NCBI GenBank assembly: GCA_003210075.1
Contig: QCNR01000003.1
Span: forward strand, 8,351 to 72,350
Reading direction: 5' to 3'
Length of the DNA stretch: 64,000 nucleotides
Source of the DNA: Pelagibacteraceae bacterium AG-426-G09
GTDB lineage: Bacteria; Pseudomonadota; Alphaproteobacteria; Pelagibacterales; Pelagibacteraceae
Below, piece by piece: positions 1-9,733 of the stretch. The notes below the pieces were generated by a model. That model was given only the letters and a program-made list of their open reading frames with translations, made no database searches and was not told the DNA's origin. The position numbers and the translations under genes were made by a program. Each line of letters starts with the position of its first letter. Position 1 is the first letter of the stretch.

Positions 1-126
1 AATATTATTTTGGGATATTATTTTTTCAATGATTTCCTTGACCTATGGTCTTTTATAGGTTTGTTTATCATTATTTCCTCCGGCCTCTATGTAATTAGAA
101 GAGAATATATGTATAAAAATAAGTAA
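1..126 (+). CDS. 3' end of a DMT/EamA-family membrane transporter (partial)
   Basis: Frame 1 translates NIILGYYFFNDFLDLWSFIGLFIIISSGLYVIRREYMYKNK*, matching the usual GxxxFxE/D...GxxxIxxSGLY C-terminus of EamA proteins. Confidence 0.7.
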   Translation, partial: NIILGYYFFNDFLDLWSFIGLFIIISSGLYVIRREYMYKNK

Positions 127-590
127 ATATATTTGTACTATATATTAAAAAAATACTTTAAGTTTTATTTATAAACAATTGTAATTATTAGATTTATTTG
201 TTTATTAAAGATTAAATCATTAGAGTATTATTTAAAAAAACAAATAATTTTGAAAAAACTAATAAGTTTTAACTAATTAAGGTTGAATAAGTAAGCAAAA
301 TAGGACTTTTTAGGAAGTTAATGAATTACTTCTAATTACATAATTTAAAAATTTTGGATAAAAATCAATATTTTCAAAAAATAACTGATTTAATCCTATT
401 TTTTTCAATGAAATATTAATGCAAATATCAAAATATTACTTAGCATTGCATATATAGAATATAGTGATTAAACGGCCATAGAAGGGGCTTATTTAGCTAT
501 AATTCAATTATCAGTTCAACCGATGAGAGAAATTGAAAAAATAACCTTATTATTAGTTATATTTAGAAAAACCATTGAAAACAAACAATT

Positions 591-866
591 CTAGAAGGAT
601 TTACCTTCAATTTTAAGTAGTTTTTTTTTTGTTTTAATGCCCCCGGGACCTGAATAACCACCTAAACTTCCATCAGACCTTATTACTCTATGACAAGGTA
701 TTTTTGGGGGATAAGGGTTTTTTCCAACAGCATTTGCAACAGCTCTTACTGCTTTTGGTTTTTTTATTGCTTTTGCAATATCTAAATAAGTACGAATTTG
801 CCCTTTTGGTATTGTTTTAAGGTATTTCCAGACTTTAATTTGAAATTTAGTTCCTTTAAAGGTCAT
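591..866 (-). CDS. ogt: O6-methylguanine-DNA methyltransferase (MGMT, C-terminal domain only)
   Basis: TxFQxKVW, IPxG..TY, AVRAVANA and the active-site PCHRV motif; start moved to ATG 866 because the upstream extension runs into the ncRNA terminator. Confidence 0.9.
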   Translation of the reverse strand: MTFKGTKFQIKVWKYLKTIPKGQIRTYLDIAKAIKKPKAVRAVANAVGKNPYPPKIPCHRVIRSDGSLGGYSGPGGIKTKKKLLKIEGKSF

Positions 867-872
867 AATGGT

Positions 873-918
873 AAAAAAAACCCCTGTTTCCTTGCACTTT
901 TTAAGGTGCAAAGAACAG
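873..918 (-). terminator. Intrinsic terminator closing the ncRNA
   Basis: CUGUU-CUUUGCAC-loop-GUGCAAGG-A-AACAG, then GGG and U8. Confidence 0.7.
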
Positions 919-1061
919 TTGTTTTTGGCACGTCGTTTTATGCGCTACCGCCATGCCTACCACTCTACGATTTTAGCGCTACTCCGTAGAGTTTTCTGCC
1001 CCCTGAGCTTGAACCTCTCGGTTTTTCCTCAATTGGCCAGTTAAGAGTTGCCTCTTAAGTT
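873..1061 (-). ncRNA. Unidentified structured non-coding RNA (~190 nt)
   Basis: GC-richer than its surroundings. Five consecutive stems: UUAAGAG-GCAA-CUCUUAA; a long stem capped by ACC-GAGA-GGU; two stems with 13-nt GUAGCGC loops; a terminator with U8. GNRA loops and G-U pairs work only on the minus strand. Confidence 0.75.
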
Positions 1062-1067
1062 ATAGAA

Positions 1068-1076
1068 ACTATATCA
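1068..1076 (-). promoter_or_regulatory. Extended -10 promoter element for the ncRNA
   Basis: TG-A-TATAGT on the minus strand about 9 nt before the first hairpin; the -35 match is weak. Confidence 0.5.
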
Positions 1077-1362
1077 AAACTTTAAATTAAATGTTATCAC
1101 TTAATTGTTGAATTTATTGAGTTTTTAACATGGTCGAATAGTGGGGATAACTCAAAAATTTGGATTTTAGGTCATAAATATTAGGCCAAAATAGCTTAAT
1201 GAGAATAAAATTGCTAAGATTGACAAAAAATAAGTTTCTATTGTTTTTCCATACTTTTTATTTTGAACATAAGTCAAAATCCAAAATCCAATAGCACTTA
1301 ATATAAATATTACGTTAGGAATTTCTCCATCAATTGTTCCCATATTTTTTTAATTTAAACTA

Positions 1363-1389
1363 TTGACATCTAAAATCACATGATATATT
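1363..1389 (+). promoter_or_regulatory. Putative sigma70 promoter of the recombinase
   Basis: Perfect TTGACA at 1363-1368 and TG-A-TATATT at 1381-1389; the spacer is short (15 nt). Confidence 0.45.
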
Positions 1390-1422
1390 ACTAGTGATAA
1401 TTAATTGTTATCAATAGTAATA
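1386..1422. repeat. lox/dif-like inverted repeat, putative recombination core site
   Basis: TATTACTAGTGATAA-ttaattg-TTATCAATAGTAATA: 15-bp arms matching 14/15, asymmetric 7-bp spacer, ending 2 nt before the recombinase ATG. Confidence 0.7.
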
Positions 1423-1424
1423 AT

Positions 1425-2378
1425 ATGAATGAATTAACAACAGATTTAAAATTGTTGCATGAGGCGACTCTTAATAACCTCAAAAGCTCTAAAGCTGATA
1501 ATACATTGAGAGCTTATAAATCTGACTTTAAGCACTTTGGTGCTTTTTGTGCAAAACACGGTTTAATTTCGTTGCCAACAGAGCCAAAAATAGTTTCTTT
1601 ATACCTAACTCACCTTTCTAAAAAATCTAAAATTAGTACATTAAGGCGTAGATTAGTATCAATAAGCATGGTTCATAAACTTAAGGGGCATTATCTAGAT
1701 ACAAAACATCCTTTTATCGTTGAAAATTTAATGGGAATAAGACGTGTCAAAGGGAGCATTCAGAAAGGAAAAAAACCTTTATTAATCAATCATTTAAAAT
1801 CAATTATTAATGTAATACATGAACAAAAAATTGAAGAAATTAAAAAATTAAGAGACAAATCAATTATCTTAATTGGCTTTGGAGGTGGTTTTAGAAGAAC
1901 AGAGCTGATATCGATAGATTATGAAGACCTAGAATTTGTTCCAGAAGGACTAAAAATCAATATTAGAAAATCAAAAACTGATCAATTTGGTGAAGGAATG
2001 ATTAAAGGTCTACCCTACTTCAATAATGAAATTTACTGTCCTGTAGTAAATCTTAGAAAATGGTTGGAAGTTTCAAAAATTAATACTGGACCTATATTTA
2101 GAAGATTTTCTAAGGGTTTATCATTAACAGATAAAAGATTAACAGACCAATCAGTTGTTTTATTAATGAAAGAATATTTAAACTTAGCAGGTATCGAAAG
2201 TAAGAATTTTGCAGGTCATAGTTTAAGATCAGGATTTGCAACGGTAGCTGCAGCATCAGGTGCTGACGAACGTAGTATTATGGCAATGACAGGTCACAAA
2301 ACAACACAAATGGTAAGAAGATATATAAGAGAAGCTAATATATTTAAAAATAATGCACTTAATAAAGTGAAAATATGA
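1425..2378 (+). CDS. Cre-like tyrosine recombinase
   Basis: N-terminal core-binding domain (NTLRAYKSDF) and full catalytic set: R (GFRRTEL), K (KSKTDQ), HxxR (GHSLRSG), H (MTGHK), Y (VRRYIR). The SKTDQxGxG and SLRSGFAT motifs are typical of the Cre-like subfamily, not XerC/D. Confidence 0.9.
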   Translation: MNELTTDLKLLHEATLNNLKSSKADNTLRAYKSDFKHFGAFCAKHGLISLPTEPKIVSLYLTHLSKKSKISTLRRRLVSISMVHKLKGHYLDTKHPFIVENLMGIRRVKGSIQKGKKPLLINHLKSIINVIHEQKIEEIKKLRDKSIILIGFGGGFRRTELISIDYEDLEFVPEGLKINIRKSKTDQFGEGMIKGLPYFNNEIYCPVVNLRKWLEVSKINTGPIFRRFSKGLSLTDKRLTDQSVVLLMKEYLNLAGIESKNFAGHSLRSGFATVAAASGADERSIMAMTGHKTTQMVRRYIREANIFKNNALNKVKI

Positions 2379-2390
2379 TTCAAAATAGAA

Positions 2391-3227
2391 TTAAATTGTA
2401 AAGATGGATTGGATTTTACATGATAAATGGCCAAGAATATATCCAATAGTTACATTAGGTTCTGACAATGGGCCATCATATTTAGTTTTTGATCTTAAAT
2501 AATATTTTTTAAAAAATTTAGTTGTTATACCCCATTTTTTTAAAAAAGTTTTGTCCCCTCTATTCTGAATAAAGTTTTTTTTTTTTCTAGTTGTTAAAGA
2601 ACCAAAGTGATAAACTTTAAAGTCATTTAAGCCTTTAAAAATTCTTACTCCTTCTCTCCAAAGTTTCATATTAAAATCTGGATCAGACGCTATACCTGGA
2701 TTAAATTCTTCACTAAAACCACCTACTTTATCCCACATTTCTTTTGAAACTAAATGTGGAGCAAAGTGAGTTCCTTGATGATCATAAAAGTTTATATCTC
2801 TATACTTTAATAATAATTCTTTTTCTTTAAAACTTTTAAAATCAGTCCCAAAATCATGAATTATATGCCCAGAATAAGGCTCTATCATTGTCCCAGATAA
2901 ATAAAATTTATCATCATTATATGTATTAACCTCATTTATCAAAACTTTATCCCAATTAGGACAAAAATACATATCATCATGACTATACAATATATATTTT
3001 TTTGAAACTAATTTAGCAGCTTTGTTAATTGAAGAACAAAGACCTATATTATTATTTGAAATTGTATATTTGTAATTTTTAGATTTGATAAAATCTAAAG
3101 TACCATCAGAACCATCATTAATATGTAATATAATTTCGTGATTGTAAGCAGAATTTAGATCCAAACTTTTTAAACAAAGTTTTAAATAATCTAAATTATT
3201 AAATGTAGGTATTACTATAGAAATCAT
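2391..3227 (-). CDS. Glycosyltransferase family 2
   Basis: ISIVIPTFN, NDGSDGT, HDD (DxD-like), VGGFSEEF. Confidence 0.9.
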   Translation of the reverse strand: MISIVIPTFNNLDYLKLCLKSLDLNSAYNHEIILHINDGSDGTLDFIKSKNYKYTISNNNIGLCSSINKAAKLVSKKYILYSHDDMYFCPNWDKVLINEVNTYNDDKFYLSGTMIEPYSGHIIHDFGTDFKSFKEKELLLKYRDINFYDHQGTHFAPHLVSKEMWDKVGGFSEEFNPGIASDPDFNMKLWREGVRIFKGLNDFKVYHFGSLTTRKKKNFIQNRGDKTFLKKWGITTKFFKKYYLRSKTKYDGPLSEPNVTIGYILGHLSCKIQSIFTI

Positions 3228-3228
3228 T

Positions 3229-5358
3229 TTATGGTTTATGCCATAAATATTTATTTTTTTTATTTATATTAAATGTTTTATTGATAATAAAATCAGCTAC
3301 CAAGGTTGAGTTAAAATACCTCATATACTTAGCTTTCCCCTTTTTTCCTATAGACTTACGCAATTTTTCATCTGCAGATATTCTCTCAATTTTTTCCGAC
3401 AAATCGGAAATATTCTTATAAAAAACCATTTCTGATTTATCAAAGAAATCATTATAACCGGTTTTTTCGTTAATTAATGTAACAAGTCCATTTCCAATTA
3501 TTTGAGTAATTCTATCACTACTATAATATTTAATAGGCGTACCTCTACTGAGATTTAACCCCATTTTAGAATTTGAAATATTTTTAAAATACTGATCTGC
3601 CCATATAGGTTGAATATTATTTATTCCGAATATATCAAATTTTATGTTTGTACATTTTTCAATCAGGTTTTTAATAAATTTTTCTCTATCATCGGATGAA
3701 CTATTTTTTAATTTACCTCTATGAACACCATGACTTAGAGCGAAGAAAACGTCATTAGAACAGTCTTTTTTAAAATTATCTAATGTTTCCATTGATTTAT
3801 CGCTGGGATTAGGAATAAAGTAACTTTTATATTTATTCGGAAAAAAATTAATAACATCGGGTGACGTGGTTAAAAAACTAGAGTCTAAAACTTCCGATTT
3901 ATCTAAAATTCTTTTTTTATTCTTATAGTAGTCTGGACCATTTTTATTAAGCGGATCTAAAAACCATTGAGTTATTTTTAAATTTGAATAATCTTTTTTT
4001 AAACTTTGTAATACATCTTGAGATATCATATCGGCATGACCTAAAACAATTACATCTGGTTTAAAATGATAACAAGTTTTTATTAACTTATCGTTTAGAG
4101 TATTCGATCCATATAAATCTCTTATGGACTTACCTCTGCTAACAATATCTCTGTCACTAAACTCCAGAACACTATGTCCTAATCTAATAAATCCATTATT
4201 TAATCTTCTGCCAGTGTTAAAAAAAAGTCTTCCATTATGTCTTTCGTTAAAATTGGTTATATGTAAAATTCGTAAGTTGGATGGTTGTTTATATACTGAT
4301 GGTGAGCTAATTTTTAAAAGATTATTTCTTACTTCATCTATTTGTTTAGATACATATTGATGAGATAAATAAAAGTTTTTATAAGATAAATTTTGATATA
4401 TTTTTCTTTTAGTTGAATTATTTATTAAATGTTTAATTTTACTAAATATTTCATTAACAGTTAGTTTTTTTAAAATAACACCATTTGTTATAGTTTCTGG
4501 AAGTCCACCTTTGTTGCTAATTATTACCGCACATCCATTAGCTGCAGCCTCTAAACTTGTTCTACCAAAAGGCTCTTCCCATCTTGAGCAGACGACTGCT
4601 ATACTCGTTTTTTTATAAAGATTAATAACATCTTTATGTTCTTTAAAACCAAGTTTGTATAATCTTTTATGATTAAATTCTAATTTATCTCTAGGCTCAT
4701 CTCCAACTACATAAGCAGACCAATCTTTGTAATTTTTAAGAATTTTTATTACGGCTTTTCCAAAAAGATCATAACCTTTTGACCTATTTAACTTTCCAAC
4801 AAAAGTAATTATTTTTTTTTTATTATTAAAATTGATTTTATTTTTTGTAGCAGATTGATTAATAACAAGTAACTTTTCACTATTTATTGCCTCTGATTTC
4901 ATTTTTTGAAGAAATCTTTTTTTTGACCAATTACTATTAAAAATTATTCTATAACAATTATTTAATAAATACATTCTTTCACTAATTGTTTTTGATCCTG
5001 ACATTGATAGTGGATCGTTATGAAAATACAAAATATAATTTTTATCGTTTAGTTCATTAACAAGATATTTTAAATAGATTGGCCTATTGTGTAGTTCAAT
5101 AATATTTGACTTTTCTCTTTTTTCTATTTCTATAAACTTATTTACGTAATCTCTATTTTGACTTTGTAGGAATCTTTTTTTGGTTTCAATATTTATATAT
5201 TTATTTTTAAATCTTTTTTTATATGCAGTATAACCAAATACAGTAATGCTTCTTTTAAATTTACTATATTTTACAATATCATTAATGTTTAAAGATACAG
5301 CTCCAGCATATGATGGAGAAAAATTTTCTTTAAATGGTAATAAAATAGAAATTTTCAT
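3229..5358 (-). CDS. Two-module glycosyltransferase (GT4 domain fused to a CgeB-like GT-B domain)
   Basis: N-terminal half has FVGK...KG and EPFGRTSLEA; C-terminal half has SKMGLNLS...YSSDRI, typical of CgeB/Glyco_trans_1_2. Confidence 0.8.
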   Translation of the reverse strand: MKISILLPFKENFSPSYAGAVSLNINDIVKYSKFKRSITVFGYTAYKKRFKNKYINIETKKRFLQSQNRDYVNKFIEIEKREKSNIIELHNRPIYLKYLVNELNDKNYILYFHNDPLSMSGSKTISERMYLLNNCYRIIFNSNWSKKRFLQKMKSEAINSEKLLVINQSATKNKINFNNKKKIITFVGKLNRSKGYDLFGKAVIKILKNYKDWSAYVVGDEPRDKLEFNHKRLYKLGFKEHKDVINLYKKTSIAVVCSRWEEPFGRTSLEAAANGCAVIISNKGGLPETITNGVILKKLTVNEIFSKIKHLINNSTKRKIYQNLSYKNFYLSHQYVSKQIDEVRNNLLKISSPSVYKQPSNLRILHITNFNERHNGRLFFNTGRRLNNGFIRLGHSVLEFSDRDIVSRGKSIRDLYGSNTLNDKLIKTCYHFKPDVIVLGHADMISQDVLQSLKKDYSNLKITQWFLDPLNKNGPDYYKNKKRILDKSEVLDSSFLTTSPDVINFFPNKYKSYFIPNPSDKSMETLDNFKKDCSNDVFFALSHGVHRGKLKNSSSDDREKFIKNLIEKCTNIKFDIFGINNIQPIWADQYFKNISNSKMGLNLSRGTPIKYYSSDRITQIIGNGLVTLINEKTGYNDFFDKSEMVFYKNISDLSEKIERISADEKLRKSIGKKGKAKYMRYFNSTLVADFIINKTFNINKKNKYLWHKP

Positions 5359-9656: not shown

Positions 9657-9733
<77 letters not shown>

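What the first reader, a model, noticed from the sequence alone, without database searches (positions are those of the whole stretch)
873..1076. Unannotated ~190-nt structured RNA divergent from the recombinase
Seen on the minus strand: extended -10 (TGATATAGT), then UUAAGAG-GCAA-CUCUUAA; CUGGCC-AA-UUGAG-GAAAA-ACC-GAGA-GGU-UCAAG-CUCAG-GG-GGCAG; two loop-repeat hairpins; a terminator with U8. Two GNRA tetraloops and G-U pairs in several stems fix the strand. It is a GC-richer island in a genome with almost no spacer DNA. I do not recognise it as tRNA, tmRNA, RNase P, SRP or a common riboswitch. Inference: a stand-alone ncRNA, possibly partnered with the neighbouring recombinase, or an attenuator for ogt, whose ATG lies 6 nt after the U-tract.
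Basis: partly seen in the sequence, partly recalled or inferred. Interest (0 to 1): 0.75.

Follow-up and report, generated by a model that had tools for sequence, protein, structure and literature searches.

The report
Known SAR11 small RNA, IMES-2
This is a complete copy of IMES-2, an already catalogued folded RNA of marine SAR11-type bacteria; it is a self-contained gene, not a switch for the repair gene behind it nor a partner of the recombinase beside it, and it likely works as a compact protein-binding RNA, which nobody has tested.

Summary
The structure is real but not new. Window 925-1065 (-) matches Rfam IMES-2 (RF02035) over the whole model at 159.2 bits, cut-off 54.7. In 92 distinct homologs 31 of 44 pairs change on both sides. 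The two loop-repeat hairpins kiss each other: the two central pairs never break in 92 of 92 and rank 3rd and 6th of 9,346 column pairs; the discoverers' own alignment probably already holds this helix (inferred). 49 homolog loci from outside this genus's usual site hold neither ogt nor the recombinase, and 27 intact recombinase-ogt intervals lack the RNA. The RNA travels as one unit with a DnaA-box-like pair, a second upstream motif, an extended -10 and a terminator. Marine metatranscriptome contigs pile up on it. Function is inferred only: a trans-acting protein-binding RNA is my best guess (about 0.4). This scan found IMES-2 several times before on other DNA.

The parts
925..1065 (-). IMES-2 RNA core (Rfam RF02035, model 1-141)
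   Evidence: 159.2 bits, E 4.7e-43, cut-off 54.7; single copy in G000
873..1061 (-). Predicted full transcript, about 189 nt, core plus terminator
   Evidence: Start inferred from the -10 and from RNA contigs that stop at 1058-1061 in runs X3, X5, X11, X12 (a weak hint, contigs cannot fix ends)
1041..1058 (-). P1 hairpin, GNRA loop
   Evidence: 100% of cells paired; loop GNRA in 92 of 92
996..1040 (-). P2 long hairpin with internal loops
   Evidence: 9 of 11 and 3 of 4 pairs with two-sided changes
962..992 (-). P3 hairpin; its loop carries one kissing strand (about 979-974)
   Evidence: 8 of 8 stem pairs with two-sided changes; kissing pairs
927..957 (-). P4 hairpin; its loop carries the other kissing strand (about 947-942)
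   Evidence: 99.3% of cells paired; kissing pairs
873..918 (-). Intrinsic-terminator-like hairpin and U8
   Evidence: -20.0 kcal/mol; hairpin plus U tract in 72 of 91 homologs by a crude test
1068..1076 (-). Extended -10 promoter element (predicted)
   Evidence: similar motif at the same spacing in homologs
1095..1112 (-). Conserved upstream motif near -42 (binder unknown)
   Evidence: 87 of 91 homologs, 0 of 27 RNA-free intervals; best-scoring site in G000
1133..1150 (-). Tandem DnaA-box-like 9-mers (predicted; consensus recalled)
   Evidence: within one mismatch in 69 of 91 homologs, 30 of 3000 random genome windows, 0 of 27 RNA-free intervals
591..866 (-). Neighbour: short ogt-like alkyltransferase (PF01035, TIGR00589), not part of the RNA unit
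1167..1343 (-). Neighbour: 58-aa hydrophobic ORF, no Pfam family; variable between relatives
1425..2378 (+). Neighbour: tyrosine recombinase (PF00589), not linked to the RNA

Best explanation
This is a full-length IMES-2 gene, a self-contained small RNA of SAR11-type bacteria whose third and fourth hairpin loops pair with each other, and it likely acts in trans as a compact, abundant protein-binding (decoy or scaffold) RNA. Shown: family membership, four covarying hairpins, the loop-loop helix, independence from both neighbours, gain or loss of the whole unit, presence in marine RNA libraries. Inferred: transcription from the extended -10 at about 1061 to the terminator at 873; control by DnaA-box-like sites and a second factor near -42; docking of P1's invariant GNRA loop. 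Guessed from anatomy: the partner is a protein that reads shape, because the only long conserved loops are tied up in the kissing helix and change their letters in concert, leaving no fixed seed for antisense pairing. The protein is not identified. Confidence is about 0.99 for the identity, 0.9 for stand-alone, and about 0.4 for this function.
For: Rfam hit. Covariation: 95.1% of cells paired against 81.6% shuffled and 33-39% for slid controls; 31 of 44 pairs change on both sides. Kissing helix: columns 104-142 are CG 83, UA 8, AU 1, unpaired 0; columns 105-141 GC 76, AU 16, unpaired 0; ranks 3 and 6 of 9,346 by corrected mutual information. At least five gene contexts: ogt site, mnmA with a convergent gene, SNase/SRAP, SelO/RmuC, and G104's site. 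Upstream motifs go with the RNA and are missing where it is missing. No stop-free sense frame in any of 92 homologs. Contigs concentrate on 920-1060 in 7 of 8 metatranscriptome runs laid, with little on ogt or the recombinase.
Against: No partner protein was found or searched for; no conserved neighbour points to one. The RNA is dispensable: 76 of 150 same-genus genomes have it, 39 of 90 among those at least 90% complete, and presence needs 12 changes on a recombinase tree. Two of five whole-helix measures for the kissing helix are not above shuffles (129/500 and 333/500), four of its six pairs barely vary, effective sequence number is about 28, and G104's copy lacks the partner loop. RNA evidence is contigs at 85% likeness, many from relatives, and cannot give strand, ends or level.
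Confidence: 0.42

Rival explanations
1. RNA-only assembly: the L3-L4 kiss forms between molecules, chaining copies into rings or cages, as short natural RNAs such as manA do.
For: Heterologous loop complementarity is what is conserved: in 17 of 92 neither loop core is self-complementary yet the two pair. Covarying 'tertiary' pairs proved intermolecular in ROOL and GOLLD (PMC12286853, passages); manA uses L5-L7' and L8-L9' kisses (bioRxiv 10.64898/2026.07.01.735769, passages).
Against: P3 and P4 are of similar length and joined by 3-5 nt, which suits a kiss within one molecule; covariation cannot tell the two apart.
Confidence: 0.15
2. Accessory or near-neutral passenger, or a defence-related cassette, that is gained and lost as a unit and matters only in some conditions.
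For: Clean presence/absence of the whole unit; 12 label changes on the tree, at least 6 forced by well-supported branches; several chromosomal sites.
Against: Strong purifying selection on structure across 10 of 15 genera; single copy; no true copy in viral contigs (0 for one pattern, 0 of 87 chance loci at E<0.01 for another) or GenBank phages; no adjacent toxin or mobility gene.
Confidence: 0.15
3. Trans-acting antisense sRNA that pairs with mRNAs.
For: Own promoter and terminator, the usual layout of such RNAs.
Against: The long loops pair with each other and change sequence in concert; no other match in the genome better than E 1.4.
Confidence: 0.1
4. Ribozyme or ligand-binding RNA acting on its own.
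For: Compact tertiary fold with invariant junction residues (19 invariant columns).
Against: No other Rfam family above cut-off; no conserved gene downstream to regulate.
Confidence: 0.1
5. Attenuator or leader for ogt.
For: ogt starts right behind the terminator in 20 of 21 same-genus loci that hold ogt; a purine-rich, ribosome-site-like run lies in the terminator's 3' arm; a few RNA contigs run from terminator into ogt.
Against: No ogt in 49 loci at other sites, next ORF convergent in 46 of 49; ogt stands without the RNA in 27 intervals; no antiterminator within 21 kcal/mol. Read-through into ogt would be a by-product.
Confidence: 0.04
6. Guide or cofactor RNA of the neighbouring tyrosine recombinase.
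For: Neighbours in this genus: the recombinase was within reach in most same-genus loci.
Against: 470 kb and 182 kb apart in G316 and G368; recombinase present in 19 of 22 RNA-negative same-genus genomes searched; it has its own palindromic DNA site in 103 of 103 loci.
Confidence: 0.02

Closest known systems
IMES-2 RNA motif (Rfam RF02035; description by Weinberg et al. 2009 is recalled, paper not held)
   Same: Whole-model match at three times the cut-off; same four hairpins.
   Different: Rfam's 39-pair structure has no loop-loop helix and stops before the terminator. Rivas 2020 Table S1 (PMC7657543, supplement 8 part 1) lists 39 pairs/15 covarying for Rfam and 44/17 for the discoverers' ZWD alignment; five more pairs with two more covarying fits the kissing helix found here, so it is probably not new (inferred, alignment not seen).
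SAR11_0636 element (Meyer et al. 2009, PMC2704228, sections 5 part 1 and 10 read)
   Same: A proposed separately transcribed SAR11 RNA near a glycosyltransferase gene, at 622 kb in HTCC1062, with variable neighbours.
   Different: Described as a three-stem junction, not four hairpins; not compared by alignment. No Rfam match at E<=0.1 in 6 RNA-free loci.
Kissing-loop RNA assemblies: manA, ROOL, GOLLD, OLE
   Same: Abundant structured bacterial RNAs with covarying loop-loop pairs and GNRA loops (passages).
   Different: No family match; oligomer state of IMES-2 untested; none of the three papers searched names IMES-2 (hits were 'regimes', 'times').
Protein-decoy sRNAs (CsrB/RsmZ, 6S RNA; recalled)
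   Same: Stand-alone, abundant, act through shape rather than an antisense seed.
   Different: No repeated GGA loops, no 6S-like bubble hairpin; 6S model finds nothing in G000 or five relatives with or without IMES-2.

Membership tests
IMES-2 (RF02035) | Covariance-model score above the gathering cut-off | tested here: met
   159.2 against 54.7 bits
IMES-2 (RF02035) | Whole model covered | tested here: met
   positions 1-141 of 141, not cut off
IMES-2 (RF02035) | Four-hairpin structure with covariation | tested here: met
   31 of 44 pairs change on both sides in 92 sequences
IMES-2 (RF02035) | Abundant in marine RNA (recalled) | tested here: inconclusive
   contigs pile on the core in 7 of 8 runs, but contigs give no level or strand
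Riboswitch / transcription attenuator | Conserved same-strand gene downstream | tested here: not met
   convergent ORF in 46 of 49 loci at other sites
Riboswitch / transcription attenuator | Competing antiterminator fold | tested here: not met
   21.4 kcal/mol penalty; terminator sequence differs wholly between genera
Riboswitch / transcription attenuator | Ligand-dependent structural change | not testable with these tools
   needs probing
6S RNA (RF00013) | Model match | tested here: not met
tRNA / tmRNA | ARAGORN or Rfam call | tested here: not met
Type III antitoxin RNA | Tandem repeats and terminator directly before a toxin gene | tested here: not met
   two unlike hairpins; downstream gene is ogt-like or convergent
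Recombinase guide RNA (IS110 bridge RNA type; recalled) | Strict linkage to an IS110-type recombinase | tested here: not met
   neighbour is a tyrosine recombinase and is unlinked in other genera
Protein-decoy sRNA | Specific protein partner | not testable with these tools
   needs pull-down

The most novel reading that the evidence does not exclude
IMES-2 is a replication-cycle-linked RNA of the ocean's most abundant bacteria: DnaA sets its transcription through the tandem boxes, and the L3-L4 kiss links copies head to tail into a protein-free ring or cage.
Probability: 0.1. Interest if true: 0.7.

Novelty: already known. Interest (0 to 1): 0.2.

Why it matters
As a discovery it matters little: the family is catalogued and this scan has met it repeatedly. 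What is useful is a handle on an open question, the function of the family, for which my searches found no paper (most subscription papers are not held). About half of the species in this genus are natural knock-outs with a clean deletion, single-contig genomes exist with it (G473, G316, G380, G104) and without it (G013, G064, G069), and the loop-loop helix and two upstream motifs give precise mutations to test.

Tried and rejected
Viral copies: none (the 87 loci gave only short hits at E>=0.024). 6S replacement: no 6S in any of 6 genomes, with or without IMES-2, so uninformative. Another RNA filling the slot in RNA-free loci: no Rfam match at E<=0.1 in 6 loci, no IMES-like profile hit in the 27 recombinase loci. 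Palindromic homodimer of one loop: rejected as the conserved feature because 17 of 92 keep L3-L4 pairing with non-palindromic cores. tRNA-Pro D-arm mimicry: the same 8-mer stands twice in tRNA-Pro, but homologs change those letters in concert. A regulon sharing the -42 motif: the next best G000 site scores 16.3 against 24.5 bits and the runners-up look coding. An alignment-free loop parse mis-read 4 rows and missed 1; its p = 0.015 is not used. The genome contigs pattern scan gave one locus only. The metagenome scan, protein searches and folds were not used. No raw-read run was offered, so RNA ends and strand stay open. The original IMES paper is not held and the ZWD alignments archive could not be read.

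Full report
Observation. G+C is 45% against 28.8% for the genome. A 58-aa ORF lies between the RNA and the recombinase. The promoter scan lists the extended -10 but finds no more sites than chance, and the terminator scan missed this hairpin; it folds at -20.0 kcal/mol.

Identity. Rfam gives IMES-2 (RF02035) at 925-1065 (-), 159.2 bits against a cut-off of 54.7, model 1-141; the only other families above cut-off in the window are seven tRNAs. It is single-copy in G000.

Distribution. Found in 21 of 36 same-genus relatives and 0 of 24 from a sister family; 76 of 150 same-genus genomes, 39 of 90 among those at least 90% complete; 79 of 151 family genomes, 10 of 15 genera; 1 of 150 genomes drawn across the class, and that one is in the same family. 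No true copy in viral contigs or GenBank phages.

Structure. From 137 locus rows I kept 92 with distinct cores (45 duplicates dropped) and aligned them by sequence alone. For 44 pairs, 95.1% of cells pair, against 81.6% in shuffles and 33-39% in slid controls; 31 pairs change on both sides. The two loop-repeat hairpins pair through their loops. The two central pairs are never broken in 92 sequences, with 9 and 16 two-sided changes, and rank 3rd and 6th of 9,346 column pairs by corrected mutual information. Against: the other four pairs barely vary, two of five measures are not above shuffles, one end pair is broken in 13 rows and the other in 8, the effective number of sequences is about 28, and G104's divergent copy lacks the partner loop. 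In 17 of 92 neither loop core is self-complementary yet they pair, so the constraint is loop 3 to loop 4. P1's loop is GNRA in 92 of 92, P2's in 80 of 92, so P1 is the likely docking loop. Rfam's model has 39 pairs and no such helix; Rivas 2020 Table S1 lists 44 pairs with two more covarying for the discoverers' ZWD alignment, so the helix was probably drawn already.

A self-contained unit. Upstream of the -10 sit a motif near -42 (87 of 91 homologs) and a DnaA-box-like pair (one box within one mismatch in 69 of 91; 30 of 3,000 random windows); neither occurs in 27 recombinase-ogt intervals that lack the RNA, where the pattern for the -42 motif was slightly stricter. In those intervals the upstream small gene abuts ogt. 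A hairpin with a U tract follows in 72 of 91 by a crude test; the other 19 all have a hairpin of at least 17.6 kcal/mol, some with weak U tracts. On a tree of 67 recombinases, presence at this site needs 12 changes, at least 6 forced by well-supported branches, shuffled mean 22.5: clustered, but gained or lost repeatedly.

Not an ogt attenuator, not a recombinase partner. In this genus ogt follows the terminator in 20 of 21 loci that hold it; in G027 a small gene intervenes, and in G104 neither neighbour lies within 13 kb. In 49 loci from other genera or of unknown genus (1.0-5.2 kb each) neither gene is present and the next ORF is convergent in 46; the neighbours are mnmA, SNase/SRAP or SelO/RmuC. 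RNA and recombinase are 470 kb apart in G316 and 182 kb in G368. Forbidding the terminator costs 21.4 kcal/mol. A few contigs bridge terminator and ogt, which may be read-through or DNA.

Expression. Of 23 runs listed I laid 8. Contigs concentrate on 920-1060 in 7; X11 has one contig, 824-1061. Listed pieces stop at 1058-1061 in four runs, although X3 has low-depth cover further upstream. These are contigs at 85% likeness, many from relatives; they show neither strand, ends nor level.

Mechanism. Shown: a known, covarying, self-contained RNA gene with a loop-loop helix. Inferred: a transcript of about 189 nt, likely under DnaA and a second factor. Guessed: it binds a protein through its shape, as a decoy or scaffold (0.42), since its long loops are occupied and vary in concert. 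Rivals: RNA-only oligomer (0.15), accessory passenger or defence cassette (0.15), antisense sRNA (0.10), ribozyme or ligand binder (0.10), ogt attenuator (0.04), recombinase guide (0.02).

Literature. Searches for IMES-2 and its accession found no paper on its function (listings only). Read: Meyer 2009 (abstract, section 10, part 1 of section 5), Carnoy and Roten 2009 (passages), Kono 2011 (supplement search, no hit), two metatranscriptome/sRNA papers (passages, no IMES), three RNA-assembly papers (passages), Rivas 2020 (passages and supplement 8 part 1). The 2009 discovery paper is recalled only. Supplements I could not see (ZWD alignments, bioRxiv files) may bear on the novelty of the kissing helix and upstream motifs.

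Verdict. Real, already known, function open. Interest 0.2.

Noticed in passing
window 1386-1422 and 1425-2378 (+): A 37-bp palindrome with a 7-bp spacer sits just before the recombinase start, present in 103 of 103 recombinase loci (some genomes fetched twice) and changing its arms with the divergent recombinase type. It is the only tyrosine recombinase found in G000, and in complete G013 GC skew and gene orientation flip at this locus. Likely a single-recombinase chromosome-dimer-resolution module, although Carnoy and Roten 2009 state that P. ubique has no dif/Xer system. The scan noted this before (e1-5258089, e1-5451683).
   Followed up: partly
window 1167-1343 (-); same slot in L003, L013, L014, L023, L024, L027: The slot between recombinase and ogt holds a changing set of small genes (two kinds of 50-60-aa hydrophobic ORFs, a 157-aa membrane protein, a 145-aa acetyltransferase-like ORF), shuffled like cassettes with or without IMES-2.
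   Followed up: partly
window 2391-5358 (-) and the same side in L023-L042: Glycosyltransferase genes begin right behind the recombinase and differ from genome to genome, a variable surface-sugar region at the predicted terminus.
   Followed up: no
L072:6577-6704 (-), G104: A divergent 128-nt IMES-2 (69.7 bits) at a different site, lacking the loop-4 kissing strand and the upstream motifs while keeping a palindromic loop 3; L113 has an extended P2 and a similar terminator.
   Followed up: partly
window 591-866 (-): The ogt-like protein is only the C-terminal domain (91 aa) in this family; relatives in family f2 have open frames of about 155 aa.
   Followed up: no
G000 and G013, G316, G473, G372, G037: No 6S RNA match in any of six genomes of this order.
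   Followed up: no
window 9657-9733 (-): tRNA-Pro carries twice the 8-mer found in IMES-2's loop 4, where it forms the D stem; probably coincidence.
   Followed up: partly
window 1-590: About 590 AT-rich bases (14-28% G+C) downstream of ogt with no ORF of 50 aa; a similar gap of about 500 nt lies between ogt and the next transporter gene in relatives.
   Followed up: no
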